From a virus (taxonomy: Duplodnaviria > Heunggongvirae > Uroviricota > Caudoviricetes), in the IMG/VR virus record IMGVR_UViG_3300038379_000173, positions 64,001-128,000 of that record: a stretch of DNA of 64,000 nt. One strand, 5' to 3'. The position numbers were made by a program, and so were the translations under genes. Below, in pieces: positions 1-37,661 of the stretch (its first letter is position 1; each line of letters opens with the position of its first letter). The notes under the pieces are model-generated. The model was given only the letters and a program-made list of their open reading frames with translations, had not been told where the DNA came from and did no database searches.

Positions 1-537
1 AAAATGCACATCCCTATTCGTATCCACCCAGATGTTGACCTTCCGAAATTTACAATGGATGTCGTAACCAGGACCGAAGTGAATGGCCGAGCCTTCTAGG
101 AAGCCATCTAGGGTGTTCTCAGATATTGGGCGGTAGTGGTAAGGGTCTCTAAAATGATTGGCCGAAGTCCAATGCGGACATACCATATAGAATTGAGAAC
201 CATTACAACCAACACGCGCTATCTCATTCAGAATACCGATGAAGTGCTCGCCTTCCCTGATATGTTCCATGATATGCTGCGCCTGTAATCTTCCGCAGAA
301 TGTATTATCAGCAATAGGCCAGGGAGTCTGGGTTATGTCATGTTGTATAGTTTGCCCATATTGAAACATATCAATGGTAACGGAGTCTTTCAACCAGTGT
401 TCTGGACGGTCACCACAGCCAACATCTAGATTTGGTAATGAGTATTGAAGAAAATATTGCGGGTTGCGATTTTTAAAATACTCCAATTTCTCCAAATAAG
501 TAGGAGGCGACAAGTTTTCCATTCTGTTAGATAACAT
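1..537 (-). CDS. Class I SAM-dependent methyltransferase (type 11-like), 3' end runs off the window
   Basis: Not in the ORF track because no stop lies in the window. Manual translation from ATG at 537: MLSNRMENL...NLDVGCGDRP...HDITQTPWPIADNTF...QHIMEHI...VCPHWTS...RDPYHYRPISENT. Contains the DxGCG SAM-binding motif; GAGGT RBS upstream. Confidence 0.75.
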   Translation of the reverse strand, partial: MLSNRMENLSPPTYLEKLEYFKNRNPQYFLQYSLPNLDVGCGDRPEHWLKDSVTIDMFQYGQTIQHDITQTPWPIADNTFCGRLQAQHIMEHIREGEHFIGILNEIARVGCNGSQFYMVCPHWTSANHFRDPYHYRPISENTLDGFLEGSAIHFGPGYDIHCKFRKVNIWVDTNRDVHF

Positions 538-566
538 GCAACTCAAAATACCTCTATAGGTTAGCA

Positions 567-1352
567 TTAATATTGCCCCCTACTCTCTCCGCGTACCATG
601 TGATACGATATAGCATCCCCAGCTATGAAAGAAGGAAAACCCGCCCGCTCATACCTGTCGTGAATGATAACATCGCCCGTGAAGCCTCTTTCAAGGGCTG
701 GCATTGGTCCAAAACGCTTAAACAACTCTTTGGATTGTAGCCAACTTACAGAATCACCACGATAGTGCGGGAATCCAAGTGAAGAATTAAACGCCCCCGG
801 CTTACCTTCCCATCTTTCCATCGCTTCCTTAATGGTGAAAAGCCGCGGCTCCTTTATACTATCACAGAATGATATAAATTCGCCCTCTTTGTAAGTAGCC
901 GCAGTTGTTCCAAAGTCTCGGACATAATGACGTGAGCCGTTGGCTAGTGGACTTTCAATACAATTGAAATTAACAATGCATTCGCGACCTACTACTTTGT
1001 AATGTTCAAGTGCACGTGCAAATGAGCCGGGATAGAATGTCTGGTCACTACCGCCGCGGATTGTGAGTGGCGCTGTGCCCATCAATTGCACACGGTTCCA
1101 AGCATTATAGAGACGCACCAAGAAAGATTGCCGCGGGTCCTCATAAACACATTCATATTCTATGCGATTTAACTTGGCTATCTCTACTAATTTGTCGGTA
1201 ATAGCACGAGGAATGGTCTCGTTGTAGTAAATATAAACATTGAACCTCCAACGTTCACGGTCTATCCCGGCGTTCCTCTGTACGTTGTCGATATGAAACG
1301 CAAAAAGTTCGGGGTCGCGCCCAATGATTGTATTGTAATCAAATTCAGTCAT
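567..1352 (-). CDS. Divergent GT-A fold glycosyltransferase-like protein
   Basis: Pattern resembles GT2: RLYNAWN...IRGGSDQ (DxD-like), W..SKELF.RFG, TGDVIIHDR, YHMVRGE; sits in a GT cluster. Confidence 0.5.
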   Translation of the reverse strand: MTEFDYNTIIGRDPELFAFHIDNVQRNAGIDRERWRFNVYIYYNETIPRAITDKLVEIAKLNRIEYECVYEDPRQSFLVRLYNAWNRVQLMGTAPLTIRGGSDQTFYPGSFARALEHYKVVGRECIVNFNCIESPLANGSRHYVRDFGTTAATYKEGEFISFCDSIKEPRLFTIKEAMERWEGKPGAFNSSLGFPHYRGDSVSWLQSKELFKRFGPMPALERGFTGDVIIHDRYERAGFPSFIAGDAISYHMVRGESRGQY

Positions 1353-2157
1353 AAGACTTCACGCGTCCTTCTTTGATTTCAGAGCGCAACTTTTCAATAC
1401 GACGATTGGCGACTCCAACATTGTGTGTTGTGTGCCACACTCCGGTTAATCTTTCGTGGTCTTGATGTACTACGAAATAGTCACAAGCGCAAATAAACTT
1501 CGCATTCACGACCTGGAGTTTTTGAACAAATTCATCATCTTCCCCAGCCCCAGCTTTATAATCCAACCCGTAGATATCTAATTTATCCAAACAATTCTTT
1601 GAAAAAGCACTTACCTATGGATAATAGTTTTGATTATGGTCTATGTGCCAGGCGTCTTTTTGTACCGCAAAAACTTCGTGCAATTGTAGTAAGGCGGCCC
1701 GCTGTTGTGTTATACGACAAAGATTACTGAACACATATCTATTTATATCACAAAGGGCGGCTATCATCTCCAGATGACGTGAACTACCCCAAAGCATATC
1801 CGCACCAGACTTTATTACATAGTTATATTTCAGATACTCAAAACCTTTGTTATAAGCCCTAGAGCTATTAAGAATGTTATCAAGTGTAGCTCCAGTTGAG
1901 ACTATAGAGACATCTAACCATTTGGGAACAGGCGCTATGTCAAGAAACATTCGGACATTATCTAAATTGTCATTTCCACCATCGTCAACTATAATGAGGT
2001 GAACTGGAATGTCAGCGGCGTTTTCCTGGGCGGCTATCGACCAAAGTGCGCGCAATGCGTTATCTACACGCTTGCAGACCGGCATAATGATATCAAAGCC
2101 AGTAGGGCGCAATTGACCTGGAGGACGTTCTAGACATGTGATGTGGCTAATATGCAT
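1345..2157 (-). pseudogene. GT2-family glycosyltransferase interrupted by one in-frame TAG (1615-1617)
   Basis: ORFs 1615..2157 (IIMPV, IIVDDGG, NKG, GAD) and 1345..1590 (GLDYKAGAGEDDEFVQKL...HQDH) share a frame. The 24 nt between them read openly: YYP*VSAFSKNCLDKLDIYGLD. Confidence 0.75.
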
Positions 2158-3243
2158 CTAAGAATATTTGCCCCAAGCTTTCTGCGCATTACCCAATAAG
2201 ATAGCAACTATTTTGGAAGCAACCTCACGATTGTATGGCGAAGTATCTCCGCTGTGCGAATAATCCGTTGATAATAAGAATTTAGCCGCAGTCACTATAT
2301 CATCATTAACATCAACGAGTATAGTTGAGCGATTTTGAAGAAGTTCAACTCGTTCTGTTTTTTCACGAATTTGTAAACAAGGCACACCAAGCGTATAACA
2401 TTCTTCGGGAACTGTGCCGCTATCAGAAATAACTAAGGCAGCACTATTCATTAGGTTTAGGAATGACAGATATGGTTGTGGTTCTATAATAGTTAGGCGT
2501 CCATATCCATCTTTGGCGGCTTCGCGCAACTTCGGCATTTCGATAATAACAACTGGTATTGCCAAAGATTCACGTAGCTCATTCAATTGTTTCAATATAG
2601 AATTGAGTCGCACCGTGTTTGTAACATTCTCGGCACGATGACATGTAACTAGCACATATTCTTTATGAAGTAATGAGTATGGCAAGATGCTATTTTGTAT
2701 GCGCCATTTATTGCTGAATGTTACATCCACTATGGGATTGCCTACCACCCAGATAGACCGCGAGTCAATATTTTCGCGCAGGAGATTAGCACGATGCTCC
2801 TCTGTATAGCAAAAATGAATGGCCGCCAAGTGGTCCACAACGGTGCGATTTTTTTCTTCTGGCATCTTCCAATTGAAAGAGCGGCCCCCACTTTCGATAT
2901 GAACGATTGGGATGTTGAGATTGGCCGCGACTAACGCTGTGGCCAAACTACTATTGTTGTCGCCCAAAATAACAACAAAGGCCGGCTGCTCGTCCTTCAG
3001 CACCCTTTCAAACTCTACCATTATCCGGCCGATTTGTTCTACTTGAGTGGCCGCCTTAGTCTCCAATCGATAGTTTGGTTCGCGCACACCCAACTGTTCA
3101 TACATTACTTTGTTTAAGTTGTAGTCGTAGTGCTGTCCAGTGTCAACCGTAATATTATTGAACCATTTGTCTAACTCGGCTGTAATGAGGCTAAGTCTAA
3201 TAATGTCTGGTCTGCATCCTATAACGGTGACTATTTTTATCAT
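2158..3243 (-). CDS. UDP-N-acetylhexosamine 2-epimerase (non-hydrolysing; FnlC/WbjD/CapG-like)
   Basis: Motifs VIGCRPDIIRL, TGQHYDY, VILGD, HIESGGRS, MPEEKNR, VVGNP, TCHRAENV, ISDSGTVPEE. Confidence 0.9.
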   Translation of the reverse strand: MIKIVTVIGCRPDIIRLSLITAELDKWFNNITVDTGQHYDYNLNKVMYEQLGVREPNYRLETKAATQVEQIGRIMVEFERVLKDEQPAFVVILGDNNSSLATALVAANLNIPIVHIESGGRSFNWKMPEEKNRTVVDHLAAIHFCYTEEHRANLLRENIDSRSIWVVGNPIVDVTFSNKWRIQNSILPYSLLHKEYVLVTCHRAENVTNTVRLNSILKQLNELRESLAIPVVIIEMPKLREAAKDGYGRLTIIEPQPYLSFLNLMNSAALVISDSGTVPEECYTLGVPCLQIREKTERVELLQNRSTILVDVNDDIVTAAKFLLSTDYSHSGDTSPYNREVASKIVAILLGNAQKAWGKYS

Positions 3244-4097
3244 ACTACTTCCTCGAGTGGGATTTGGTGTCTATCAGAAGCCGCTCTTAATGTTTTCCTA
3301 AACAAATATCTATAACATTGGGGTTTTTGTAGATAATCTAATAATCGGATTACCTGTTTACCACCATATTGCAAACTATACGTGCCATTTGTTGGTCGAA
3401 TTGCAACTCTACCAAGTCCACAAGTTTCTTCTAAGACTGTACGTAAGTCGTGCAAAAAAGATTCAGTACTAGCAATTTCTACTCGTAAAACAACGCCAGA
3501 ACTCGTTCTTTCAAATTTTAAACATCCATTACCATCGTAATAGCCACGAATAAAATGTCGTAAGTTATCCTTATCAAGGATTTTAGTAGGGAAAATACCT
3601 ATTTTTGTTTTGTTCGGCAATATATTGAAATTATTAACTAAATCGCATTTAATCTGTGCATAAGAACAAGAAAAGCGACAAGTCGCCTTATCGGCGTTTA
3701 TTATTGGTTTTACATCTAACTGTATATCTTCCAAAAATTGTTCGAGATGCATGATGTCTTTAACTGATATATCAAGTGTCAAACAGTTACTATCATTATC
3801 AAGACTGCCGTCTGCACTAAGATATCCAGCCCAATAACACGACAATGAATTAAAATGAGAAAAAAAGTTTTCATTAAGCGGACACTTACTAAATTTATAA
3901 CGCATTAAGTTGGCTTCAGAACGAGACCTAATTGGAACTTTTTCTTCTTTCAAAATAATCTTTATCGGAACAATTGAAACGCCAAAATGTAAAGCTATTT
4001 TATCAATTGATAAACCGCTATTATACAAATCACAAACTTCCCGACGAGATTCTTCTGTAAGGAAAAGACGCTTCTGGCGAGCCACATTAAATCTCAA
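3240..4097 (-). mobile_element. Free-standing LAGLIDADG homing endonuclease with N-terminal HTH
   Basis: Two LAGLIDADG-type helices (YWAGYLSADGS; HFIRGYYDGNG), N-terminal HTH (LYNSGLSIDKIALHFGVS), C-terminal YLFRK. True start may be GTG at about 4085. Confidence 0.8.
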
Positions 4098-4124
4098 CTT
4101 TCAGTCTTGTTACAATTTTCCGCT

Positions 4125-4946
4125 TCACTTCCCCATCCATCCTTTAAGGTCAACAAGCATTTCATTGAAACCCTTTGGGGCTAAAGTTGTATTTAATGGA
4201 TGAATGGTCCGCAGTCGCCTATCTATAGGATGAGGCGCAACCACTTCTTTTAGTGAAGCATCAACTGTAAAAAGCTTCAAAATCTTCGATACCATGGAAT
4301 ACTTACTAATATCTTCGGAAAAGATATGCCGTGTGCCAACGACCCAGAGGTTATCTACCATGATATCTCTAATGCACCGTGCCAACTCTAAGGTGGTCAA
4401 TCCATTCCATAGGTGATTATTAAATCCATTGATGTCCTTGCCGCCCTGACTCAATACCCACTCAAAAAATGATGATTTTCTGCCGCGGATTTCTGGCCCA
4501 ATGATACTGGTGCGCAAATTCATACAGTCGGTCGGCTCACCAAGCGCCTTTGATTGTCCGTAGATGTCAGTGGCATCCGCTGGACAGAGTTCCGTATAAA
4601 ACATTGAAGACCCAGAATAGGCGCAATCGCTCGTCACATGGATAAGTTTAGCCCCCAACATACCACAGAGGCGGCTTAAAATCCATGGAAAGACTGCATT
4701 GGTATAAATACACTCTGGCTCATTGCCCGCCTTGAAGACTGGCTTAATAGCCCCAATACAATTGATAACATAGTCAGTATTTCTATCTATATGTCGCGCG
4801 AGCCGCGCCTCTAAAAATGTTGCGCCCGGCCGCACGTCAATGACATCGCGCCCCAACCCTACGACTTCAAAGCGCGCGTCCTTGCGCAAGTAATCCTGGA
4901 CCATATGGCCCAGCATTCCAGTATTGCCCAACACCACCACTTTCAT
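4125..4946 (-). CDS. RmlD-like (dTDP-4-dehydrorhamnose reductase family) SDR
   Basis: GNTGMLG, VINCIG, IHVTSDCAYSG, YGQSKALGE, RTSIIGPE, WNGLTT. Confidence 0.85.
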   Translation of the reverse strand: MKVVVLGNTGMLGHMVQDYLRKDARFEVVGLGRDVIDVRPGATFLEARLARHIDRNTDYVINCIGAIKPVFKAGNEPECIYTNAVFPWILSRLCGMLGAKLIHVTSDCAYSGSSMFYTELCPADATDIYGQSKALGEPTDCMNLRTSIIGPEIRGRKSSFFEWVLSQGGKDINGFNNHLWNGLTTLELARCIRDIMVDNLWVVGTRHIFSEDISKYSMVSKILKLFTVDASLKEVVAPHPIDRRLRTIHPLNTTLAPKGFNEMLVDLKGWMGK

Positions 4947-5428
4947 CGCGGCACCACATTGAAGAAATGAAGGTCAGTATCAGTAAATGGCAACCTAACA
5001 TCGTCTCCGAGAGCTTTCACACTACTCATTGATAGTGTAGAGAAAACCACCAGGATTGTATCGCTAGACAATGACATAGCTCCATTGTACCAACCAGGCG
5101 GCACCCAATAAATGGAAGGTTTGCAAGCTGCCAAAGTAGTTGAAACAACTTCATCTGCGCAGGCCGCCCTGTCTTTTAGGATAGGCTTACACACTATTTT
5201 GGTCGCACCACTCACAACGTGCAGACCAGTCCAAGCGTGAGTGTGACCGTGAAACGCACGAATATAGCCAACCTGCCAGTTGCGCACAACATAGCTTCGT
5301 GTTATAGTCGGTACCGCAATATATTCCTCTCCAACCTTATAAGTCAATGCATCCATCTCATCGATGATGCCGTGAACAACCCCGCGGTCATCCACAAACT
5401 GCGGAAGTTCAATTAGGAACGGTTTCAT
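4943..5428 (-). CDS. Cupin, RmlC/FdtA-like nucleotide-sugar epimerase/isomerase
   Basis: Start refined to ATG 5428 (MKPFLIELPQFVDDRG). Motifs DDRG, IRAFHGH, YWVPPGWYNG. Confidence 0.75.
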   Translation of the reverse strand: MKPFLIELPQFVDDRGVVHGIIDEMDALTYKVGEEYIAVPTITRSYVVRNWQVGYIRAFHGHTHAWTGLHVVSGATKIVCKPILKDRAACADEVVSTTLAACKPSIYWVPPGWYNGAMSLSSDTILVVFSTLSMSSVKALGDDVRLPFTDTDLHFFNVVPR

Positions 5429-6392
5429 ATCTATCCTTGATGTAAAGAGCATTATGATATACTTTATCCCAAAGGTCGGCCACACTTCCACTACGTGCCT
5501 TGGCAGCTAACTCCAAGATACCTTCTTTGAGTGTCTTCATTGGAATGAATCCTGCTGCGGCAGCCTTCTCTGTGCTAACCCTGTAATTTCTAAGGTCTTC
5601 GAACTTATTCTCGGTAATTTCCATGGCTGTAGAGGGGTCTAGATTTAAAGTGTCAATGATAGTCTGGGCTATTTCAAGTACCGTAAAATTGCCACAAGCT
5701 AAATTGTATGTGCCAACACGCGGCCTTATATACCAGCTACTACACCTGACCATTGCATATGCAGCATCTTGAACGTGTAAAAGTGGACGCCATTGCTGGC
5801 CGCCAAAGATTGTTAATTTCTGCCCCTCTACTGCTTTGAAGGTTAGAATATTGGTTACAAGGTCACAACGAAGTCGTCCGAATTCAGCACTGCGACCAAA
5901 AAGCGTACCGAGACGAAAAATATAATGGTTGGGGACTTGACGCACATATTCTTCAGCAGCTAATTTTGTGCCGGCATATAGACTAAGAGGATTAGTTGGA
6001 CTATTTTCATCTATTAATGAGTCGGCCGCGCCATACACGCTACAGGTTGATGCAAAGATAAGCCGCGCCCCTAAACTAGCACATATTTCAGCAATGTTTT
6101 TAGTAGCTACCTCATTAACTGCAACTGTTAGGGTTGGATTAACTGCGCAAGCCCCATCTCCAACAATGGCCGCAAGATGTATGACTTCTTTAACATCATG
6201 TGAGATAAAAAGTTCCTTGAGTTGCTTTGTGTCCCTAACGTCTGCGCGCTTAAAAATCAGGTTGGGATGTTCGCGGTCATACCTCCCACCGTAAAGCAAA
6301 TTGTCTATGGCTAATACCTTATAGTTACATCCTAATGCTAATTTTACTGCACAGTCGCCTAAATACCCAGCCGCGCCTAAAATCGCAATCAT
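5409..6392 (-). CDS. NAD-dependent nucleotide-sugar epimerase/dehydratase
   Basis: Start refined to ATG 6392 (RBS GAGGTTAGGG). GAAGYLG, HLAAIVG, FASTCSVYG, YAGTK, RLGTLFG, WRPLLHVQD. Confidence 0.9.
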   Translation of the reverse strand: MIAILGAAGYLGDCAVKLALGCNYKVLAIDNLLYGGRYDREHPNLIFKRADVRDTKQLKELFISHDVKEVIHLAAIVGDGACAVNPTLTVAVNEVATKNIAEICASLGARLIFASTCSVYGAADSLIDENSPTNPLSLYAGTKLAAEEYVRQVPNHYIFRLGTLFGRSAEFGRLRCDLVTNILTFKAVEGQKLTIFGGQQWRPLLHVQDAAYAMVRCSSWYIRPRVGTYNLACGNFTVLEIAQTIIDTLNLDPSTAMEITENKFEDLRNYRVSTEKAAAAGFIPMKTLKEGILELAAKARSGSVADLWDKVYHNALYIKDRYETVPN

Positions 6393-6574
6393 TTCCCTAA
6401 CCTCTTTAGATGCCACAAGTGTGCCTTTTCTATGTAGGCCGCCAAAATTCCCGCCGTTATTTTCTGCTCTAATAAAATGACAGGGCCGCCGCAAAAACAT
6501 ACAGTAATATACTCTGGGCCAAGTTGGCCGCACCGTAGACACTTACGTATACGCACGCGCACACCATATTGCAA
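6389..6574 (-). CDS. Small putative zinc-ribbon protein
   Basis: CLRCG...CFCGG pattern. Fills an otherwise empty gap, and its TGA overlaps the epimerase ATG (ATGA coupling). Confidence 0.45.
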   Translation of the reverse strand: MQYGVRVRIRKCLRCGQLGPEYITVCFCGGPVILLEQKITAGILAAYIEKAHLWHLKRLGK

Positions 6575-10512: not shown

Positions 10513-10518
10513 AACGTC

Positions 10519-11775
10519 TTAAAAACTCTTTTCTGTGCTATTCTCAAGAGCACCGAGAGAAGTTTGAGGATTAAGTGTCTGACGCACTGCGTCAAAATAC
10601 CCAGTGCCGACAAACCCCTGATGTTTGTAAGCTCTATAGCCCATAGAGGTTAACATCTTCTCGTTTTGTTGTAGTCGCGAATAACCCAACATGCCATCGT
10701 TTGCAAAATCGTGGGCTAGTGCAAACATATCTTTATTGAGTGAATGGAAACCAGCAAGAGTAACGAAACGAAATTTATAGCCCAGGGTGTTTAGACGCTT
10801 ATCATACTCGACAAGGTCGGCCGGAGTCATTTCTGTCCATTCTTTGAATGACGGGCTCATGTTATAGGCTAGCCACTTCCCAGGAAATCTCTCGTGGATA
10901 GCATTGGCAAATTTCTCTGCGTCTTCCAAGGATGGATTAGAAGTCTCGCACCAAACAACATCGACATATTGGGCAAAAGCTAAAGCTCGCTCAATAGCCC
11001 ACTGGAAACCACCGCGTATTTTGATGAATCCATCGTCGGTTTGTTTTGCGACAGAAAAATGCGTATCGACTTCCTGATACTCAATAAACCTTACATCTGT
11101 TCCGTCTGGAATACAACGAGTAAGAAGACCAGCAGCTTCTGCATCAGTGCGCCCAATAATCACAAGAGGCACATCGCAAATGTCGGCCATTAACCGGGCC
11201 GCTTTTAATTTTTCAATGAATTCCTCAACTGGCACCAACACCTTGCCACCCAAATGTCCACATTTCTTTTCACTACTCAGTTGGTCCTCAAAATGGACAC
11301 CAGCCGCCCCAGCCTTTATCATCCACTTGGTAAGCTCAAAGGCATTCAAAGCGCCGCCAAAACCGGCCTCACAATCAGCAACAAGCGGAATGACGTAAGG
11401 ACGCAATTCGCCATTAATAGAAGTGATTTGTTCTTGACGAACAAGTGCATTGATAATTCCTTCGACCAAACGTGGACAACGGTCGGCAGGATATAAGCTT
11501 TGGTCTGGGTACATATCACCATTAACATCCGCGGCAACTTGCCATCCAGACACATAGCCGGCCTTGAGGCCGCCATCTACCATTTGGACGGCCTGGGCCG
11601 GCGTAGATATTCCAAGGGCACTCACGCCATCTTTTGATGCTAACAGTGAACGTAAAGTCCTAGCGTTGTGACTAGTAAAGGAATAATCATGGCGCATAAA
11701 ACCCCTAAGGCGGTCAACGTCCTTTGAAGACCACGAGCGCTCAGCGTTGCATGTCCACCAATCGTTATCTGACAT
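10519..11775 (-). CDS. aceA: Isocitrate lyase
   Basis: YVSGWQVAAD, MYPDQSLYP, PLVADCEAGFGG, GVHFEDQ, catalytic KKCGH, IIGRTDA, WCET, AYNMSPSF, KHQGFVGTGYFD. Confidence 0.97.
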   Translation of the reverse strand: MSDNDWWTCNAERSWSSKDVDRLRGFMRHDYSFTSHNARTLRSLLASKDGVSALGISTPAQAVQMVDGGLKAGYVSGWQVAADVNGDMYPDQSLYPADRCPRLVEGIINALVRQEQITSINGELRPYVIPLVADCEAGFGGALNAFELTKWMIKAGAAGVHFEDQLSSEKKCGHLGGKVLVPVEEFIEKLKAARLMADICDVPLVIIGRTDAEAAGLLTRCIPDGTDVRFIEYQEVDTHFSVAKQTDDGFIKIRGGFQWAIERALAFAQYVDVVWCETSNPSLEDAEKFANAIHERFPGKWLAYNMSPSFKEWTEMTPADLVEYDKRLNTLGYKFRFVTLAGFHSLNKDMFALAHDFANDGMLGYSRLQQNEKMLTSMGYRAYKHQGFVGTGYFDAVRQTLNPQTSLGALENSTEKSF

Positions 11776-11778
11776 AGT

Positions 11779-13221
11779 TCACCTAGGATTGAATGTCCCA
11801 TTTGTAATAGACTCAAGGGTTATTTTGGCCGCTTCTTTTGCCAACGGAGCATTATCACAGGAATCTAATATTTCTTCTACAGCAGACCCAACGTCGTATT
11901 CACTGTGAACCTTTTGCGCCAAGCGTTGGCCAACCATCAGACGATTGATACGGTCAGTAGCCAAATCTTCCATGTATCCGTCAATCAAAGAAGCTCCGCG
12001 TCCTTCCAATACACCTTGGCGATATAAAATAGAAGTACGCAAAGCCGCCTTTGTTCCTTCAATAGTTACTGGCAAGTGTTCGCGCTCAGGAAAAGCTTTA
12101 AGGTCAGGTCGCAGCCACTCTTCACCTGGTCGCACTTTTAGTTGATTTTTCCTTCTGAAGCATTTAACCGCAATAGCATTTTGGTCAGGATGTCCAGTCC
12201 ACGCCCCGTCCATACCGCAATCAAATTCGTTTTGCTTGTCCGCTTTCAGTCTATCTAGAGCTAGAGTATTAAGCGCTGAATCCTTCCGGGACGGAAATAA
12301 GGCGGTCATGCCGCCAATAGCCAATAGACCATGTGAATGACAGAACTGAACAAGTTGCTTCCGATGATGCTGAAAGAACGTTACGTTGTGCGGAATGGCA
12401 TTACGGTCGGGAAAAATCCAATCGGGCCGCTTGAATGTAAAATGTATGATGGACGCCATGAGGTCCCAGCGCCCAAGGGCAAGTCCAACCAAATAATTCT
12501 TGAGAACCTCACCAAATTTTTCTAGGTGATACGGAAGCGGCATTGATTCTACTAGAGCCATACACTTAATGGTCCCAAGCGGCCATTTCTTTGCTCTCTC
12601 GATGGCTACAAAAGCATCTCGCCACCATTGGCCGTCAAATGTACTCTCGCATTTAGGAATCATTATACATGGGGCGTGAGGTAGTGATTCAAGTGTCATG
12701 TCTCCGAAAATCTCACAGAGGTCATAGAGAGACGCGGGTATTTGTATGTCAACCTTGGCCGCCGTATTGATATATTGGGAGAGGTGTAGACCGCGCGGCC
12801 GAAACCAGACTACGGTACCATTTCCAATTTTAAGTTCACTACTTAAAACCTTCTTTATGTTCTCATGGCCGGCAGTAATCGCACCCCATGTGTTAGCCAC
12901 AGAATCCTCTAGGTCTAACATAACACCAGGGGAACCAGACATAAGAAGTTTGGCGGCCAAATCTAGATTATCGGCCGGCCCAGTCATTTGGTTGCGTTGG
13001 TCTAAAAGCCAGGAGGGCAACGATACCTTCCATTGAGACGGTTCTTCTGCCACTGGATAATCAGGGAGAACATTACGCCAACCTAACAAAAGTTGTTTTG
13101 TGCGAAGGTCATTCAGATGACGCCAACGCCGCCACAGCGCTGTTTTGTCGCGGAGATAAACCCAAAGTCTGGCCGCCCCGCCTTTTATTTGTTCGCTGCG
13201 TGGCATATAATTTGGTTGCAC
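11779..13221 (-). CDS. aceB: Malate synthase (A-type-like)
   Basis: QMTGP, MLDLEDS, RPRGLHL (catalytic Arg), IPKCES, LVES, GRWD, IGGM, KADKQNE, DGAWTGHP, MEDLAT (catalytic Asp). Confidence 0.93.
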   Translation of the reverse strand: MQPNYMPRSEQIKGGAARLWVYLRDKTALWRRWRHLNDLRTKQLLLGWRNVLPDYPVAEEPSQWKVSLPSWLLDQRNQMTGPADNLDLAAKLLMSGSPGVMLDLEDSVANTWGAITAGHENIKKVLSSELKIGNGTVVWFRPRGLHLSQYINTAAKVDIQIPASLYDLCEIFGDMTLESLPHAPCIMIPKCESTFDGQWWRDAFVAIERAKKWPLGTIKCMALVESMPLPYHLEKFGEVLKNYLVGLALGRWDLMASIIHFTFKRPDWIFPDRNAIPHNVTFFQHHRKQLVQFCHSHGLLAIGGMTALFPSRKDSALNTLALDRLKADKQNEFDCGMDGAWTGHPDQNAIAVKCFRRKNQLKVRPGEEWLRPDLKAFPEREHLPVTIEGTKAALRTSILYRQGVLEGRGASLIDGYMEDLATDRINRLMVGQRLAQKVHSEYDVGSAVEEILDSCDNAPLAKEAAKITLESITNGTFNPR

Positions 13222-13222
13222 A

Positions 13223-14233
13223 TTACACCCTTAGAACATTATAGAATGGATGGACAGTTTTCCATGGCCCCAACATCATGAGTGGGATGACTGGAAGGTC
13301 ATGGCCGCCATATACATAGTTACTCGTCCATTGCGCAAAAGTTTTATTAATGTAAGTCTCTTCGTGTTGTTCATACAATGGATGTGTAGTCATTACAGTA
13401 GGATGTTGCCAATTAAACTCCAATATAGTATTTGGGTGCTCCTTATGTTCCACAAACTCAATATATTTTTCGTCAAACTTCTGCGAAGCATTCATCCCAT
13501 CGGATAGAGCAAATTTACGCAACTCGCTCTGATAAAATTCCCTCTTCATCGTATGAAATGCCTTACCCTTGGCATGTCCATAATGGTATACATATAGAGA
13601 TGGGATGAAAAATCGTTTGGTTTGATAATGATTGCTGAAATACGTACAGTGCCCATCTGAGTCGGTTGCGACTGGATGTGTATGGTAACGTAATCCTGGC
13701 CGCCAGCGTAATATTCTTTGATGCCACAAATTCCATTCTGGATGTGGCGCTTTAATATGCCAGAAATCTCTGTAGAAATGTAGGAAGGTGGGAATAAATT
13801 CACTCGCGAGTGGCTGTATTTCTATAGCGCGCCGCAATCTTTCAATAGAACCTTCCATGTAGAATTCATCTACATCACAGATTATATTCCAATCGCCAGG
13901 CCGCCCAACATCCAAGAAAATTTGCTTGCCCTCCTCTAGGGATTTAAAGTGCCGCCGCAGTGTATAGAGTTCAATTTTATTGTGTGGGTCAGGAAAATTC
14001 CGAATGATGTCTAAGGTCCCATCGGTCGAATGACCGTCAGGTGTAGAATGTGGGCGACCCTCAACAGCACCCTCAACTACACGGATGATATCAAATTCAT
14101 CATAGCAATTCCTTAGGTTATATTCTATCCAGTCAGCCTCGTTGTGCGCGGCCACACATTTGACCAACCGTGGGCGCGGCCCATTATAGTTGACACTATC
14201 TATTATATCAGCGACTTGCTTCCTAGGCTGCAT
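13223..14233 (-). CDS. GT2-like glycosyltransferase
   Basis: AAHNEADWI, STDGT, ICDVDE, YHYGH. Confidence 0.8.
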   Translation of the reverse strand: MQPRKQVADIIDSVNYNGPRPRLVKCVAAHNEADWIEYNLRNCYDEFDIIRVVEGAVEGRPHSTPDGHSTDGTLDIIRNFPDPHNKIELYTLRRHFKSLEEGKQIFLDVGRPGDWNIICDVDEFYMEGSIERLRRAIEIQPLASEFIPTFLHFYRDFWHIKAPHPEWNLWHQRILRWRPGLRYHTHPVATDSDGHCTYFSNHYQTKRFFIPSLYVYHYGHAKGKAFHTMKREFYQSELRKFALSDGMNASQKFDEKYIEFVEHKEHPNTILEFNWQHPTVMTTHPLYEQHEETYINKTFAQWTSNYVYGGHDLPVIPLMMLGPWKTVHPFYNVLRV

Positions 14234-15320
14234 GTAGAGCCTCTGTTATTTTAGCAGCTGTGTTAGCCCAAGTAAACTGGCTGGCTGTCTCTCTAGCATT
14301 ATTTACAAGAGTCTCACGTTCTACTACCTTCATCCCATGTGCGCGTTTCATAGCTTCTGCTAATTCCAAAGTTGAGAATGAACACCAAGCACCTTGACCA
14401 TGAAACCATATACCATCATGGGCCGCAACCATTCCAGTAGGTTTAACAAGAATGGTATTAGACTCGCCCATATATTGTGTATGCCCCGAATAGTCCGTCG
14501 CGATACAAGGTTTGCCACACGCCATCATTTCAAGAGGTTCTAGATTCCAGCCCTCGGCATGAGAGGGGAAAATACCCCAGTCAACCTGATTGAACAACAC
14601 GCGTAATTCGCCATGAGTATTAACTCGCGGCAAAATCTTTATATTCTGACCATTCTTACTCGAGATGTATTTAATAGCCCACTGTTCATTGCCAAGGTTG
14701 GCCTTTAGGAATGGATTATCATTGACCATCCACAATTCTACTGGGTCGTTAGGTTCAAATGCGATATTAAATGCATCTAAAAGCTCTTGGTGTCCCTTAC
14801 GCACTTCCCACTTACCAACATTAAGGAAGATAGTTTTATTGCGAGTATGATATGGTCGCGCTTTGGCCGCGACTTCATCTTTATAGAATGTTGTTGTGTC
14901 GACTCCTAGTGGAATAACACTAGTGGGCACATTAATATGGTTAGCGCGCACCACATCTTTTGCCCAATCACTACAGACAAATAGACCATCTACACTTCCA
15001 AGATGATGAAGTTCACGCTCGTCGAACTTGTCCAATTCAAAGATGGGCCAACCAATACGCTTGCCCTTCCCCGGAAACATAGCTAGTTCATTTTGATGCC
15101 AAATACGGATAGACGGGGCGTCTGGAGTATAAAACGCTGCATTTTGTATGCATTTTTGAACAAGCTCAATAGTAGAGCGATTTTTCTCAACTTCAACATT
15201 CCCAATCGGGAAAAGGCTTACTGTATGTCCTTGCTCTACTAGAGCCTTTAGAACGTTTAGTCCAACTACTCCATAGCCCAATTGATTTATTGGCGCAACT
15301 AGGTTTAAGAACATTTCCAA
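14223..15320 (-). CDS. GT4 glycosyltransferase
   Basis: GYGVVG, PLGVD, VGKWEVRKG, FPSHAEGWNLEPLEMMACGKP.IATDYSGH. Confidence 0.9.
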   Translation of the reverse strand: MEMFLNLVAPINQLGYGVVGLNVLKALVEQGHTVSLFPIGNVEVEKNRSTIELVQKCIQNAAFYTPDAPSIRIWHQNELAMFPGKGKRIGWPIFELDKFDERELHHLGSVDGLFVCSDWAKDVVRANHINVPTSVIPLGVDTTTFYKDEVAAKARPYHTRNKTIFLNVGKWEVRKGHQELLDAFNIAFEPNDPVELWMVNDNPFLKANLGNEQWAIKYISSKNGQNIKILPRVNTHGELRVLFNQVDWGIFPSHAEGWNLEPLEMMACGKPCIATDYSGHTQYMGESNTILVKPTGMVAAHDGIWFHGQGAWCSFSTLELAEAMKRAHGMKVVERETLVNNARETASQFTWANTAAKITEALHAA

Positions 15321-16444
15321 AGCTCCCAGTGTTTCTCGATAACATTTAAAAGTTGTAGTCCAACGTGTTGTGGGCTAAATTTAGCTGCACGTCCCTTGCA
15401 AATCGCTTCAAATCTGTTCCAGTCCGATACTTCGCGTGTTTCCCACATAGTATATGCATCGCGCATGCAGGCACGCAAACTATTACAATCTGGCTCAATC
15501 CAGTTTTCATCACCAGTATAAAGATAATCTAGTGGGTGTGGCATATCAAAGACTGGAGATGCCGAACCATCACAAACCCAACCAGCAAATGGTCTAATAA
15601 ATTCACTAGGTCCAGTGCCGTCTACAGCAATAGCTGGGCGACCAAATCCCAGAGCATCAAAATGCGGAACACCCCAACCCTCTCCCCTAGATGGGAGCAC
15701 ATAACAATCGGTACTCTTATATAGAGAGTCTATTTCTTGTGAAGTTGAAACTCCATGGATGATATGAATGGGGGCATATGACTTACGTCGCATAGCAGTC
15801 TTCATCGTCTGAACTAATTGGATGACCTTCTGTTGATGTTCAGGTGTATCGTGTGGGGTAAGGTAGGTTTTAACAACGAGTAGAACATTATCATCCGCAG
15901 AAAATTCAGACAGATAGGCTTTTAGGAGTGCGTCAAATCCCTTCTTTTTGCTAAATTGAAAGATACTAAGAAATTTGAATGCATCATTATGCGAAGGAAA
16001 GAAAATCTTTGGGGCCTGACTGTCAAACCGACCAACTACGTAAGTGTATGGAACAATTTCTACTGGAACTGTTACCCCACTTATTTTGCAAGCTTGCCAA
16101 TTTGCCTTGGTGGGCACAATAACAAGCTGCATGCGATTTAATTCATTGACCCATTGGAGCGGCAACCTATCTGTTTCCCAACAAAACAATCCTACATTAA
16201 AAGCGCCTTCTTTGGCTTCCATCTCATTGGGCGTAGTGTGCTGCAAAATCACATCCACGTCATCTGACGGATAAGCACTAAAACGGTCTAACTGCGCACT
16301 TTGATGGTTACCACCATCATAAAGTAAACACCGAGCCGCCAAAGCACCATCTTCAATGTAGAGGCTCAAAGCATTCAAATAACCGCGCGCAACACTAGCA
16401 TACCCGCTAAAATCCCTGAATGGCGCTATATAGAGAATTTTCAT
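15305..16444 (-). CDS. GT4 glycosyltransferase
   Basis: SGYASVAR, WETD, KKGFDALLKAY, VLPSRGEGWGVPHFDALGFG. Confidence 0.9.
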   Translation of the reverse strand: MKILYIAPFRDFSGYASVARGYLNALSLYIEDGALAARCLLYDGGNHQSAQLDRFSAYPSDDVDVILQHTTPNEMEAKEGAFNVGLFCWETDRLPLQWVNELNRMQLVIVPTKANWQACKISGVTVPVEIVPYTYVVGRFDSQAPKIFFPSHNDAFKFLSIFQFSKKKGFDALLKAYLSEFSADDNVLLVVKTYLTPHDTPEHQQKVIQLVQTMKTAMRRKSYAPIHIIHGVSTSQEIDSLYKSTDCYVLPSRGEGWGVPHFDALGFGRPAIAVDGTGPSEFIRPFAGWVCDGSASPVFDMPHPLDYLYTGDENWIEPDCNSLRACMRDAYTMWETREVSDWNRFEAICKGRAAKFSPQHVGLQLLNVIEKHWELWKCS

Positions 16445-18147
16445 AGTGTCACTGCCCCAATGTTACTGGTCGCCATAGGGGCAAAATCTGCGACTTCAAC
16501 TTCTCCACGTAACCTACAAGAATGACGCCAGCGCACTTCCTCGAAGGTATTTTGTGTGATGATTTGCTCGCGGAAATATTGCTCAACACCGTCACGAGCG
16601 CCACCATTTTGAAGGGTTTTTAACCAATCCTGTAGCCCTTTATTATCAGGGGTGCGGCCTAGTATATTAAAGTAGCACCAAGCCACGAAATCAATATCAC
16701 TGAGTCCTTCTGGGGGATGGCGGGTAGTTAGATGTGACAACGTCGGCGGCTTATCCCAAGTTGTGGTACGGTCATAACATTTCAAATTATCTACAATATA
16801 CATTAATTTGTCAGCAGTTTCTTGCCATGTGTGTTTAGATATAGCAACCGTACGTGCTTCTTTGCCTAGCGTAGCACGTAGTGAATCGTTAAGCGCCAAC
16901 TTTGCCATTTTTGCGGTTAAATCATCAATATCTGGCAGAGAGCGAATAGAAGCTGTCTCCGCTTCGTGGTAGAGACGCTGCACGCGAATTGGTAGCCCAC
17001 CGCCATTCGCTATATGGTCCTCCATAGCAGAATAAGCTTGATACAAGCCTGGGACACCACAAGCCTTAGACTCTGTAATAGGAACCCCCCAACCTTCACA
17101 GATGGCCGGCTGGATATAAACATCAAAAAGATTATAGACCTTACCCATCATCTCAGTAGAGATACCTGCGTGTGTAGATGGCATGTGGGCTGCTATTTCA
17201 CCGCATTCGCGACACTGACGTATTCCCCTCGAATCGCAAGGAGCAAACCAGTCTGCAAATACTTTCTTGCACGCATCACAAGTGTAGGTAAAGATAACAT
17301 GACGTTGGAGTTGAAAGCGCCGCAAATAATCTGGAAGGTCCCAGCCCAAATCAGGCCAACTAGTATGACAATAGAGAACACTATGGTCAATACGCAGCGC
17401 TTCTTTCTCAGAAGCAGAAAGACTCTGGCCGGCCTTAGCCTTCCCTTTAGCTCTCTCTACTACTTGACGAACTGCATACTTGTCACGCAAACGACGGTAA
17501 GCATCAAAAAGGTCAGGGAAGAGTTTGCGCCGCTGATTTCTCATCACTGTACCAAAAACAAATAGAGTTTGTGTGATGTGGAATTCGTCGCGAACGGCAA
17601 CTTTATCCATTGGGCGGAAAACTTCTAAGTCCACCCCCGGAGAGAGAACAGCTTCAACTGGAATACCATCTGCTTCCAAGGTACGTTTGCCGAATAGGCT
17701 GTATGTACACACTACATCAGTTTTCTTATAGATATTTTCTATCCAGTCGCGACGCTGCGGGGCCGAATCTACAGTGGAGCACCAAATGTATTTGAAATTG
17801 TTCCTAAACCTTGAATTGACAACATGTTGTTCCATCCAAGGGTCTCTAAATCCTATCACATGGTCTGGTTGCCAATCTGCAAGTACCGCATCTATTTTAT
17901 ACGCACCGAAATGGTTAGCCTCATTTCCCTTATAAATTTTAGCTTCCTGCTCATTTACTGGGAGATTACCATAGAATTTCCATGGGAGTGCCTTAGACTC
18001 CTTGCAGACTGAAGCCCATGAACCAAATTCGGCCACCTCATACTTTCCAGTAGCATGAAGCGCGCGGAGCATTTCGCGCTGAAAAACACTGAAGCCTGTT
18101 GCTAAAAATGAAGCCTCGCCGCTAAATAGTAATCTTTTCTTTTTCAT
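16441..18147 (-). CDS. GT4 glycosyltransferase with Cys-rich insertion and C-terminal DUF4214-like domain
   Basis: TGFS, PGVD, RNQRRK, QPAICEGWGVP.TESKACG; CxxC...CxxC insertion; C-terminal FVAWCYFNILGRTPDNKGLQDW resembles DUF4214. Confidence 0.85.
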   Translation of the reverse strand: MKKKRLLFSGEASFLATGFSVFQREMLRALHATGKYEVAEFGSWASVCKESKALPWKFYGNLPVNEQEAKIYKGNEANHFGAYKIDAVLADWQPDHVIGFRDPWMEQHVVNSRFRNNFKYIWCSTVDSAPQRRDWIENIYKKTDVVCTYSLFGKRTLEADGIPVEAVLSPGVDLEVFRPMDKVAVRDEFHITQTLFVFGTVMRNQRRKLFPDLFDAYRRLRDKYAVRQVVERAKGKAKAGQSLSASEKEALRIDHSVLYCHTSWPDLGWDLPDYLRRFQLQRHVIFTYTCDACKKVFADWFAPCDSRGIRQCRECGEIAAHMPSTHAGISTEMMGKVYNLFDVYIQPAICEGWGVPITESKACGVPGLYQAYSAMEDHIANGGGLPIRVQRLYHEAETASIRSLPDIDDLTAKMAKLALNDSLRATLGKEARTVAISKHTWQETADKLMYIVDNLKCYDRTTTWDKPPTLSHLTTRHPPEGLSDIDFVAWCYFNILGRTPDNKGLQDWLKTLQNGGARDGVEQYFREQIITQNTFEEVRWRHSCRLRGEVEVADFAPMATSNIGAVTL

Positions 18148-18801: not shown

Positions 18802-18844
18802 AAATCCTCCTGACAATAATATAGGGAATTAAAATCCCTGCCGA

Positions 18845-36223: not shown

Positions 36224-36226
36224 AGA

Positions 36227-37660: not shown

Positions 37661-37661
37661 A

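What the first reader, a model, noticed from the sequence alone, without database searches (positions are those of the whole stretch)
1..18147. At least 18 kb phage glycan-building island: about 10 glycosyltransferases, sugar pathway, methyltransferase
Seen: four GT4/GT-B and about six GT2/GT-A genes, four nucleotide-sugar enzymes and a SAM methyltransferase in one coupled run directly after ssb. It continues past the window edge. No flippase, polymerase or chain-length gene is recognisable here. Known: phage GTs modify DNA, host O-antigen (serotype conversion) or virion proteins; such large sets are typical of giant-virus fibril glycosylation. Inference: the number of GTs and the lack of export genes fit cytoplasmic assembly of a complex, possibly methylated glycan on virion proteins (a 'glycan-cloaked' phage) or on DNA.
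Basis: partly seen in the sequence, partly recalled or inferred. Interest (0 to 1): 0.8.

Follow-up and report, generated by a model that had tools for sequence, protein, structure and literature searches.

The report
Phage glycan-assembly island, target unknown
An uncultured 167-kb freshwater phage gives about 26 kb to ten or eleven soluble sugar-transferring enzymes, its own activated-sugar pathways and methyltransferases but no export machinery, so it probably builds a complex sugar coat on proteins inside the infected cell; islands of this kind are already known in aquatic phages, and what receives the sugars is still unproven.

Summary
Window 1-18147 is one tightly coupled minus-strand run directly after ssb. 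It holds 4 GT-B and 6 GT-A glycosyltransferases, a four-gene sugar block (SDR, RmlC-like cupin, RmlD-like reductase, WecB-type 2-epimerase) and a class I SAM methyltransferase.

The island runs 7.7 kb past the left edge, to a GDP-mannose 4,6-dehydratase. In total it is about 25.8 kb and 32 genes, 15% of a 167-kb IMG/VR phage contig.

The finding left out some content: isocitrate lyase plus malate synthase, a membrane-anchored trypsin-like peptidase and a LAGLIDADG endonuclease.

Five related phage contigs (26-177 kb) carry the island at the same place. A core is as conserved as the DNA polymerase; the middle varies (APS kinase and sulfotransferase in one relative).

Neither this genome nor a complete relative encodes a polytopic membrane protein or an initiating phosphoglycosyltransferase. 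No ThyA-type hydroxymethylase or C5-cytosine methyltransferase was found, and GATC is absent (0 against 442 expected), so DNA glycosylation is unlikely.

Two conserved paralogous GT-A enzymes are closest to GmaR, the Listeria flagellin O-GlcNAc transferase. That is a lead towards a protein acceptor.

Best reading: cytoplasmic protein glycosylation, probably of virions; unproven. This scan already noted similar islands on other DNA and this island's left half.

The parts
1..567 (-). Class I SAM-dependent methyltransferase, 195 aa; its stop lies 20 nt left of the window
   Evidence: An LDVGCG motif I is present. PHROG methyltransferase hit, E 7e-5. In the 30-sequence alignment of the query and its homologues, 26 members hit Methyltransf_11. 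The profile hits PDB methyltransferases, including a D-glucose O-methyltransferase.
567..1352 (-). GT-A fold glycosyltransferase-like protein, 261 aa
   Evidence: No Pfam hit. The Atlas model (pTM 0.85) matches viral GT2 clusters at TM 0.74-0.79. Conserved at 40-51% identity in three relatives.
1345..1590 (-). Small ORF of 81 aa, function unknown
   Evidence: No family hit.
1615..2157 (-). Short GT2 glycosyltransferase, 180 aa, possibly degenerate
   Evidence: PF00535, 32 bits, covering only the first 108 of 168 profile positions. No homologue in the relatives.
2158..3243 (-). WecB-type non-hydrolysing UDP-GlcNAc 2-epimerase
   Evidence: PF02350, 295 bits. TIGR00236, 247 bits against a cut-off of 210.
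3240..4097 (-). LAGLIDADG homing-endonuclease-like ORF; an insertion, not a glycan gene
   Evidence: PF14528, 25.6 bits. GC 0.34 and GC3 0.24, against a genome GC3 of 0.42. Absent at this site in G001 and present there in G002.
4125..4946 (-). RmlD-like NDP-4-keto-6-deoxyhexose reductase
   Evidence: PF04321, 53 bits. TIGR01214, 47 bits, below its cut-off.
4943..5422 (-). RmlC-like cupin (NDP-sugar 3,5-epimerase or ketoisomerase type)
   Evidence: A profile of three phage copies hits the dTDP-4-dehydrorhamnose 3,5-epimerase 7pvi at E 1.2e-9, followed by QdtA and FdtA.
5409..6542 (-). Extended SDR nucleotide-sugar epimerase-type enzyme; the likely start is near 6392
   Evidence: PF01370, 132 bits. 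No NCBIfam equivalog reaches its cut-off. The active-site stretch reads STCSVYG with YAGTK, without the D-E pair of RmlB-type dehydratases. The Pfam match starts at residue 52, and homologues are 320-333 aa.
6543..7403 (-). Membrane-anchored trypsin-like serine peptidase
   Evidence: PF13365, 54.5 bits. N-terminal and C-terminal hydrophobic segments are present. TAAHV and GNSGG motifs are present. Weakly conserved at this position in the relatives.
7387..8139 (-). GmaR-like GT-A glycosyltransferase, paralogue 1 (250 aa)
   Evidence: DDGSTD and DAD motifs. PHROG beta-1,4-glycosyltransferase hit, E 8e-5. The family profile hits the GmaR GT domain at E 4.4e-11 and SunS at E 2e-3.
8136..8954 (-). 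GmaR-like GT-A glycosyltransferase, paralogue 2 (272 aa; the likely start is near 8912)
   Evidence: 38% identical to paralogue 1 and covered by the same profile result.
8915..9793 (-). Short GT-B glycosyltransferase, 292 aa
   Evidence: PF13692, 30.8 bits against a cut-off of 27. Conserved at 44-45% identity in the relatives.
9790..10512 (-). Canonical GT2 glycosyltransferase, 240 aa
   Evidence: PF00535, 105 bits. Its PDB hits are polysaccharide-type GT2 enzymes such as chondroitin synthase, GalT1 and SpsA.
10519..11775 (-). Isocitrate lyase; a variable insert, not part of the conserved core
   Evidence: TIGR01346, 406 bits against a cut-off of 276. A KKCGH motif is at residue 170, and GC3 equals the genome mean. 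Absent from G001, G002 and G003.
11779..13221 (-). Malate synthase A-like enzyme; a variable insert
   Evidence: PF01274, 145 bits. TIGR01344, 206 bits, below its cut-off of 594. The Arg, Glu, Asp and Asp positions that I take to be catalytic or Mg-binding are invariant in 13 homologues; that assignment is from memory of E. coli malate synthase, not tested. A malate synthase sits at the same site in L006/L010.
13223..14233 (-). Probable GT-A glycosyltransferase, 336 aa; conserved core gene
   Evidence: Only weak Pfam hits. A conserved D-x-D-E motif is present. 56-62% identical in all relatives. The fold model failed, with pLDDT 43.
14223..15320 (-). GT4 glycosyltransferase, 365 aa; conserved core gene
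   Evidence: PF00534, 57.7 bits. Homologues at 43-60% identity lie on 11 IMG/VR contigs.
15305..16444 (-). GT4 glycosyltransferase, 379 aa; conserved core gene
   Evidence: PF00534, 49.5 bits. 43-51% identical in the relatives.
16441..18147 (-). GT4 glycosyltransferase with a conserved four-Cys insert and a C-terminal DUF4214 domain, 568 aa; conserved core gene
   Evidence: PF00534 and PF13946 hits. Invariant C290, C293, C312 and C315. The model has pLDDT 75, and Foldseek finds PimB', chlorovirus NY-2A B736L, MshA and BshA at E 1e-11 to 1e-13.
18122..18376 (-). Small conserved ORF between ssb and the island, function unknown
   Evidence: No family hit. Homologues sit at the same position in the relatives.
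18385..18816 (-). Single-stranded DNA-binding protein; right border of the island
   Evidence: phrog_44, E 4.8e-23.

Best explanation
The island is a self-contained, cytoplasmic glycan assembly line of a lytic-type large phage.

Shown:
- About 32 co-oriented, overlap-coupled genes encode 10-11 soluble glycosyltransferases.
- There are enzymes for several activated sugars. One is a GDP-mannose 4,6-dehydratase branch with a candidate phosphomutase and nucleotidyltransferase. Another is an SDR, RmlC-like, RmlD-like and WecB-like block. There is also a short NDP-sugar dehydrogenase.
- Two methyltransferase-like genes are present.
- No initiating phosphoglycosyltransferase, flippase, polymerase or exporter is encoded anywhere in the phage.

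Inferred:
- The enzymes build a branched heteroglycan that contains 6-deoxyhexose and HexNAc-type residues and is O-methylated.
- Four or five GTs next to ssb make a conserved inner part. Lineage-specific genes make a variable outer part, which is sulfated in one relative.
- The first sugar is put directly on Ser or Thr of a protein by the two GmaR-like GT-A paralogues.
- The most likely acceptors are the phage's own virion proteins, as in chloroviruses, mimiviruses and mycobacteriophages.
- The isocitrate lyase and malate synthase pair is a separate metabolic add-on that landed in the variable zone. It probably works as a glyoxylate shunt, and it could feed gluconeogenic carbon into sugar nucleotides.
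For: - Gene content and coupling.
- All GT-family matches of the genome lie inside the island.
- No protein with more than three hydrophobic segments exists in the 167-kb contig, and none with more than two in the complete DTR-bounded relative G001.
- No PF02397 match.
- Synteny: the island sits at the same place, between ssb and the polymerase on one side and an HTH/HD block on the other, in G001, G002, G003, L010 and L011 (L009 is a further copy close to G001). The core GTs are 43-62% identical; the polymerase is 57-63%.
- The variable middle carries tailoring genes in G001: APS kinase, sulfotransferase and Methyltransf_23.
- The profile of the 250/272-aa paralogues hits GmaR at E 4.4e-11 and SunS/ThuS-type peptide GTs next. 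It hits no generic GT2 structure better than E 0.04. The neighbouring 240-aa GT2 shows the opposite pattern.
- GmaR is a flagellar glycosyltransferase; the paper read here (PMC3150276) cites Shen et al. 2006 for its O-GlcNAc transferase activity.
- Virus-encoded soluble GTs and methyltransferases build virion glycans in giant viruses (PMC9614988).
- Glycans on capsid and tail-tube proteins of mycobacteriophages are reported, as described in PMC12619734.
Against: - No acceptor is identified.
- No mucin-like Ser/Thr tract was found in any protein. The S/T-richer cassette at window 35909-39676 is not conserved in G001.
- Soluble GT4 and GT2 enzymes equally serve lipid-linked pathways. The 568-aa GT has weak similarity to lipid-acceptor GT4s.
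- The GmaR-like pair was not detected by BLAST in G003. In bacteria it occurs mostly fused to other GT and methyltransferase domains, without a protein-binding module.
- The island adjoins replication genes, not structural genes.
- A conserved extracytoplasmic peptidase inside the island hints at envelope-directed functions.
- The contig is 91% complete.
Confidence: 0.45

Rival explanations
1. Host-envelope remodelling. The phage's soluble GTs extend a host undecaprenyl-linked primer, and the host's own flippase, ABC transporter and ligase export the altered O-antigen, capsule or wall glycan. The new surface would block superinfection, or stop progeny adsorbing to debris.
For: - GT4 and GT2 enzymes, WecB, Gmd and Rml-type enzymes are the standard content of O-antigen and capsule loci.
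- The 240-aa GT2 resembles polysaccharide GT2 enzymes.
- A conserved membrane-anchored exported peptidase sits in the island.
- A conserved core with a variable middle resembles surface-polysaccharide loci.
- Cyanophage islands of this kind are usually read this way (PMC12801897).
Against: - No initiating transferase, flippase, polymerase, ligase or GtrA-like protein is encoded in this genome or in a complete relative.
- No WecG/TagA-type user of UDP-ManNAc was seen among the island ORFs scanned with Pfam.
- The core GTs are conserved like essential genes across phages that are 40-60% diverged.
Confidence: 0.25
2. Host-protein glycosylation. The GmaR-like enzymes and their partners glycosylate host surface proteins, such as flagellin, pilin or S-layer protein, in the cytoplasm before export. 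This would mask receptors.
For: The closest solved relative of two conserved island GTs is a flagellin O-glycosyltransferase.
Against: A receptor mask would not need ten GTs and several sugar pathways. No host is known, so no target can be named. The lead is the same one used for the virion reading and does not discriminate between them.
Confidence: 0.1
3. DNA hypermodification. The GTs attach sugars to hydroxymethylated bases of the phage genome.
For: The island adjoins ssb and the DNA polymerase. Phage GTs related to LPS and teichoic-acid enzymes are known to glycosylate 5hmC (10.1101/2023.12.21.572611).
Against: - No ThyA-family hydroxymethylase and no C5-cytosine methyltransferase.
- No Tet/JBP hit, although the control for that search was silent.
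- A normal ThyX is present.
- GATC is absent, 0 against 442 expected, in this genome and also in G001. That is what site avoidance looks like, not base masking.
- Known DNA glycans have one to three sugars.
Confidence: 0.03
4. A non-surface product, such as a cytoplasmic glycolipid, a glycosylated small molecule or a free oligosaccharide. One example is a GlcNAc-malate-type thiol precursor that uses malate made by the inserted shunt enzymes.
For: The GT4 folds resemble MshA, BshA and PimA/B, which act on small molecules or lipids. Malate synthase is adjacent to the GT core.
Against: These resemblances are generic to GT4. The isocitrate lyase and malate synthase genes are absent from most relatives that keep the GTs. 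Ten GTs argue for a polymer or a large oligosaccharide.
Confidence: 0.07

Closest known systems
Virion glycosylation machinery of chloroviruses and Mimiviridae (for example PBCV-1 A064R and A061L; the 38-kb CroV glycogene cluster; PMC9614988, PMC10117803)
   Same: Virus-encoded soluble GT-A and GT-B enzymes, the virus's own nucleotide-sugar pathways for 6-deoxy and N-acetyl sugars, sugar methyltransferases and no export genes. Gene sets are clade-specific. The 568-aa GT folds like chlorovirus NY-2A B736L.
   Different: This is a tailed phage of bacteria. There is no sequence kinship beyond the family level. A glycan on virions is not shown here.
Mycobacteriophage virion O-glycosylation (Freeman et al. 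2023, as summarised in PMC12619734)
   Same: Phage-encoded cytoplasmic GTs modify capsid and tail-tube proteins without export machinery.
   Different: As I recall, those phages carry only a few GTs and no large sugar-nucleotide module; I could not read the primary paper. The only actinophage similarity found is about 27% identity to Streptomyces and Rhodococcus phage GTs. Here there are 10-11 GTs and at least nine sugar enzymes.
Cell-wall/LPS-like auxiliary gene islands of cyanomyoviruses (P-SSM2, S-SCSM1, S-SCSM2R; PMC12801897)
   Same: Large sets of GTs (13 in S-SCSM2R) and NDP-sugar enzymes in an aquatic lytic phage, with the target unproven.
   Different: This is a different phage lineage, with a DnaE-type split polymerase and no T4-like hits. 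The island GTs have no cyanophage homologues apart from one Microcystis record. The core-plus-variable architecture is documented here across a lineage.
GmaR (Listeria flagellin O-GlcNAc transferase) and SunS/ThuS peptide S-glycosyltransferases
   Same: The 250-aa and 272-aa GT-A paralogues align to the GmaR GT domain over their conserved N-terminal ~190 of 252 profile positions, including the nucleotide-binding and DxD motifs.
   Different: There is no TPR or anti-repressor domain. The acceptor is untested. Bacterial homologues are mostly fused to GT4, GT2 or methyltransferase domains.
Methyltransferase and 5mYOX-dependent DNA glycan gene clusters of phages (10.1101/2023.12.21.572611)
   Same: Phage GTs repurposed from envelope-glycan enzymes.
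   Different: The defining cytosine methyltransferase and dioxygenase were not found. There are far more GTs here.
Serotype-converting gtrABC or wzx/wzy modules of temperate phages
   Same: Phage GTs that change a glycan.
   Different: The membrane components that define them are absent.

Membership tests
Autonomous viral (virion) glycosylation systems | Several virus-encoded soluble glycosyltransferases | tested here: met
   Ten GTs lie in the window, none with a hydrophobic segment.
Autonomous viral (virion) glycosylation systems | Virus-encoded nucleotide-sugar synthesis and glycan tailoring (methylation) | tested here: met
   WecB, an RmlC-like cupin, an RmlD-like reductase, SDRs, Gmd, a nucleotidyltransferase and an NDP-sugar dehydrogenase. 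One methyltransferase is supported through its family; a second has only weak evidence.
Autonomous viral (virion) glycosylation systems | Glycan physically present on virion proteins | not testable with these tools
   This needs virions. No sequence signature of an acceptor was found.
Wzx/Wzy-, ABC- or gtrABC-type surface polysaccharide modules | Polytopic membrane components: flippase, polymerase, GtrA, permease | tested here: not met
   At most three hydrophobic segments per protein (reached by one 100-aa protein) in this genome, and at most two in the complete relative G001.
Wzx/Wzy-, ABC- or gtrABC-type surface polysaccharide modules | Initiating polyprenyl-phosphate glycosyl-1-phosphate transferase | tested here: not met
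   PF02397 finds nothing in the genome, while the controls respond. No polytopic WecA-like protein either.
Phage DNA glycosylation | A route to 5-hydroxymethyl pyrimidines: a ThyA-family hydroxymethylase, or a C5-methyltransferase plus a TET-like dioxygenase | tested here: not met
   PF00303 and PF00145 are absent while their controls respond. PF12851 is absent, but its control was silent, so that part is inconclusive. ThyX is present.
GmaR/SunS-type protein-directed GT2 enzymes | Closer in sequence to GmaR or SunS than to polysaccharide GT2 enzymes | tested here: met
   The profile hits GmaR at E 4.4e-11 and SunS at E 2e-3. The best generic GT2 is E 0.04. The 240-aa GT2 gives the contrasting pattern.
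GmaR/SunS-type protein-directed GT2 enzymes | Transfer of the first sugar to a polypeptide | not testable with these tools
   This needs an enzyme assay.
Cyanomyovirus LPS/cell-wall auxiliary islands | Homology of the island genes or of the phage backbone to T4-like cyanophages | tested here: not met
   There is no megablast match. The polymerase is DnaE-type, with its best hits at 35% identity to unrelated phages. The GT568 and GT336 proteins have no phage hits.
Glyoxylate shunt (AceA and AceB) | Isocitrate lyase signature and equivalog score | tested here: met
   TIGR01346, 406 bits against 276. A KKCGH motif is present.
Glyoxylate shunt (AceA and AceB) | Malate synthase equivalog score and catalytic residues | tested here: inconclusive
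   TIGR01344 scores 206 bits, below its cut-off of 594. The TIM-barrel domain scores 145 bits. The Arg, Glu, Asp and Asp positions that I take from memory to be catalytic are invariant among 13 homologues at 49-73% identity.

The most novel reading that the evidence does not exclude
A lineage of roughly 120-180-kb freshwater tailed phages runs a giant-virus-style autonomous protein glycosylation system. GmaR-like O-glycosyltransferases start a glycan on virion proteins. A conserved four- or five-GT core extends it. A fast-changing outer set decorates it with methyl or sulfate groups, which gives each phage its own sugar coat. In this phage a captured glyoxylate shunt supplies carbon for the sugars.
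Probability: 0.3. Interest if true: 0.8.

Novelty: new member of a known kind. Interest (0 to 1): 0.45.

Why it matters
If the glycan sits on virions, tailed phages outside the actinophages would be shown to build complex, strain-specific sugar coats with their own enzymes. That would bear on adsorption, stability, grazing and recognition in freshwater.

The conserved-core and variable-edge design gives a natural set of variants to compare.

The two GmaR-like enzymes make the question directly testable by co-expression with phage structural proteins.

Even without a known target, the island is a source of soluble GTs and rare-sugar enzymes. It also gives a documented case of central-carbon genes (isocitrate lyase, malate synthase) lodged inside a phage glycan locus.

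Tried and rejected
The 99-kb contig that holds the closest isocitrate lyase and malate synthase pair (78% and 73% identity) could therefore not be read.
- Megablast of the island against cultured phages found nothing.
- A single-sequence locus search with malate synthase found nothing; the alignment-based search worked.
- Promoter and terminator scans were at chance level.
- No tRNA lies in the window.
- The search for mucin-like Ser/Thr tracts as acceptor candidates found none. The S/T-richer 477/540-aa cassette is not conserved in G001, so I dropped it as a conserved substrate.
- The AlphaFold model of the 336-aa core GT had pLDDT 43 and was not used. Its profile finds no solved structure.
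- The 195-aa methyltransferase alone finds nothing in PDB or Pfam. It was confirmed only through its family.
- I first put a non-homologous G002 ORF into the cupin alignment and then removed it.
- The idea that BshA-like GT4 enzymes use shunt-made malate was rejected as the main reading, because most relatives lack isocitrate lyase and malate synthase.
- The moraphage lineage, which has four core GT groups (PMC12619734), was considered. It was set aside because those genomes reach up to 307 kb, are called jumbo phages by their authors, and were not shown to be related to this phage.
- The Freeman et al. 2023 paper is not held.

Full report
**Where the window lies.** The window is bases 64001-128000 of a 167,041-bp IMG/VR virus record rated 91% complete. 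The record has a plus-strand block of small genes at 0-50 kb. A long minus-strand block from about 144 kb down to 50.5 kb holds virion, replication and glycan genes. Phage identity rests on three things:
- ssb, a DnaB-like helicase, an exonuclease and a split DnaE-type polymerase;
- related contigs, one of which (G001, 177,375 bp) has direct terminal repeats and is rated complete;
- no close cultured relative.

**Checking the observation.** Every ORF from 1 to 18147 is on the minus strand, and neighbours overlap or lie within 28 nt. Pfam and NCBIfam give the following assignments.

GT-B enzymes:
- 16441-18147, which also carries DUF4214;
- 15305-16444;
- 14223-15320;
- 8915-9793.

GT2 enzymes:
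- 9790-10512 (strong);
- 1615-2157 (short);
- 13223-14233 (weak).

Sugar enzymes:
- WecB at 2158-3243, above its equivalog cut-off;
- an RmlD-like reductase at 4125-4946;
- an SDR at 5409-6542.

Four ORFs without Pfam hits were resolved in other ways.
- 4943-5422 is an RmlC-like cupin (profile against 7pvi, E 1.2e-9).
- 567-1352 has a GT-A fold (Atlas TM 0.79 to viral GT2 clusters).
- 7387-8139 and 8136-8954 are paralogous GT-A enzymes with DDxSTD and DxD motifs.
- 1-567 belongs to a class I methyltransferase family: 26 of the 30 aligned family members hit Methyltransf_11.

All PF00535 and PF00534 matches of the genome lie in this stretch.

The finding did not list four further genes:
- isocitrate lyase at 10519-11775 (TIGR01346, 406 bits against 276; KKCGH motif);
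- malate synthase at 11779-13221;
- a trypsin-like peptidase at 6543-7403 with N- and C-terminal membrane anchors;
- a low-GC LAGLIDADG ORF at 3240-4097.

**Extent of the island.** The island continues for 7.7 kb to the left of the window. In order, the genes there are:
- Hsp20;
- a short NDP-sugar dehydrogenase;
- an SDR;
- a second methyltransferase-like ORF (weak evidence only);
- a nucleotidyltransferase;
- a weaker GT-A-like ORF;
- a beta-phosphoglucomutase-family HAD enzyme;
- a weak PMI-type cupin;
- a GDP-mannose 4,6-dehydratase scoring 379 bits.

The whole island spans genome 56333-82147. That is about 25.8 kb and 32 genes, 15% of the contig.

**Relatives.** A search with the 365-aa GT4 found 11 IMG/VR loci. 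Six of them show the same order: polymerase, ssb, small ORF, four GTs, GT2, further GTs, peptidase, SDR, cupin, RmlD-like, WecB-like. They are G001 with a second copy close to it (L009), G002, G003 and two short contigs. The island ends at Gmd in G001, G002 and G003, the three contigs long enough to show it.
- The core GTs are 43-62% identical; the polymerase is 57-63%.
- The middle differs between phages. G001 has APS kinase, a sulfotransferase, a Methyltransf_23 enzyme and a glutamine-synthetase-like gene.
- G002 and G003 carry other inserts.
- Isocitrate lyase and malate synthase occur only here, in a closer relative I could not read, and (malate synthase) in L010.
- The shunt genes have genome-typical GC3, so they are old residents. 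They are still accessory, not core.
- More distant phages keep only the GT4, next to a GT47-like enzyme, a TylF-type methyltransferase and a CAP59-like protein.

**Tests that bear on the target.** Export was tested first.
- A hydrophobicity scan of all ORFs finds no protein with more than three candidate membrane segments here (one 100-aa protein reaches three), and none with more than two in the complete G001.
- PF02397 is absent.
- The phage therefore encodes no flippase, polymerase, GtrA, permease or initiating transferase.

DNA as the acceptor was tested next.
- No ThyA-family hydroxymethylase and no C5-cytosine methyltransferase were found. The Tet/JBP search was uninformative because its control was silent. 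ThyX is present.
- GATC occurs 0 times against 442 expected here, and 0 times in G001. That fits site avoidance rather than base masking.
- Known DNA glycan clusters depend on a methyltransferase and a dioxygenase and add one to three sugars (10.1101/2023.12.21.572611).

A protein acceptor has one positive lead.
- The profile of the 250/272-aa paralogues hits the GT domain of GmaR at E 4.4e-11, then the peptide S-glycosyltransferases SunS and ThuS-like, and hardly any generic GT2.
- The neighbouring 240-aa GT2 does the reverse.
- GmaR is the Listeria flagellar glycosyltransferase; the paper read here (PMC3150276) cites Shen et al. 2006 for its O-GlcNAc transferase activity.
- This is a lead, not proof. 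Bacterial homologues of the pair are mostly domains of large GT-GT-methyltransferase fusion proteins, and BLAST did not detect the pair in G003.

The 568-aa GT is an ordinary retaining-type GT4 fold (PimB', chlorovirus B736L, MshA, BshA). It carries a conserved four-Cys insert and a DUF4214 tail. This does not reveal its acceptor.

**Most likely mechanism.** Sugar nucleotides are made in the cytoplasm from host hexose phosphates.
- One branch starts from GDP-mannose through Gmd.
- The second branch uses the SDR, RmlC-like, RmlD-like and WecB-like block. The SDR lacks the D-E pair of RmlB-type dehydratases, so it is more likely an epimerase. The cupin and the reductase may then act on the Gmd product. 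This assignment is inference.
- Soluble GTs then assemble a heteroglycan, methyltransferases cap it, and nothing exports it.

I put 0.45 on a protein acceptor that is mainly virion protein. The other readings get:
- 0.25 for extension of a host lipid-linked glycan exported by host machinery;
- 0.10 for host surface proteins;
- 0.07 for a non-surface product;
- 0.03 for DNA.

The shunt pair most likely acts as a true glyoxylate shunt. Feeding sugar synthesis from it is a reasonable but untested link.

**Comparison with what is known.** Large phage glycan islands are published for cyanomyoviruses: 13 GTs and 22 cell-wall-type genes in S-SCSM2R (PMC12801897). Autonomous virion glycosylation is established for giant viruses (PMC9614988) and reported for mycobacteriophages (as described in PMC12619734).
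- This island works like those systems, but it is unrelated to them in sequence and sits in a different phage lineage.
- Earlier notes of this scan describe the left half of this same island (e1-1697946) and very similar islands in other genomes (e1-5934047, e1-6005137). The thing has therefore been found before on other DNA.
- I file it as a new member of a known kind. The added value is a lineage-wide core and variable architecture, whole-genome evidence against export and DNA routes, and the GmaR-like lead.

Noticed in passing
whole genome (G000) and relative G001: The tetranucleotide GATC is completely absent: 0 found against 442 expected in 167 kb, and 0 in the 177-kb relative. GTAC and CATG are mildly depleted. 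This suggests strong selection by a GATC-specific host nuclease.
   Followed up: partly
window 3240-4097: A low-GC LAGLIDADG endonuclease-like ORF sits between the WecB-like and RmlD-like genes. A 33%-identical ORF occupies the same junction in G002, and G001 has none. In L006 a GIY-YIG-like ORF follows malate synthase. The island looks like a hotspot for mobile endonucleases.
   Followed up: partly
window 18845-21241 and 23415-25313: The DnaE-type DNA polymerase is split into two ORFs about 2 kb apart, with four small ORFs between them. The C-terminal part (798 aa) carries an HNH-like insert that the 528-537-aa versions in relatives lack.
   Followed up: no
window 16441-18147 (residues 290-315): A conserved four-cysteine insert (C290, C293, C312, C315), probably a zinc ribbon, lies inside the C-terminal Rossmann half of the GT4 that also carries DUF4214.
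   Followed up: partly
L022:13875-14864 and L023:1725-3121 (relative G001): At the same place, the related complete phage carries a glutamine-synthetase-like gene, an APS kinase fused to DUF2061, and a sulfotransferase-like gene (27.4 bits against a cut-off of 27). This implies a sulfated glycan in that phage.
   Followed up: partly
window 6543-7403: A trypsin-like serine peptidase has an N-terminal signal or anchor and a C-terminal membrane segment. It is translationally coupled to a GmaR-like GT and kept at this position in the relatives at only 24-33% identity.
   Followed up: partly
window 6393-6542: If the SDR starts at its internal Met, a non-coding gap of about 150 nt lies upstream of it. 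A gap of similar size is at the same place in G001. It may be an internal regulatory region of the island.
   Followed up: no
L004:14995-16236 (Phage C48C1, OQ984149.1): A Kyanoviridae phage carries an isocitrate lyase homologue, 44% identical, annotated as a hypothetical protein. There is no adjacent malate synthase.
   Followed up: no
L007 (IMGVR_UViG_3300030385_002649, 370,804-bp contig): Malate synthase and isocitrate lyase homologues (47-48% identity) sit side by side on a 371-kb viral contig. The shunt pair therefore recurs in unrelated large viral records.
   Followed up: no
proteins P0391-P0510: Bacterial homologues of the GmaR-like GT-A domain are mostly parts of 500-1300-aa fusion proteins with GT4, further GT2, Glyco_transf_7C and methyltransferase domains, for example in Desulfosporosinus and candidate-phyla bacteria. 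They look like single-chain glycan assembly lines.
   Followed up: no
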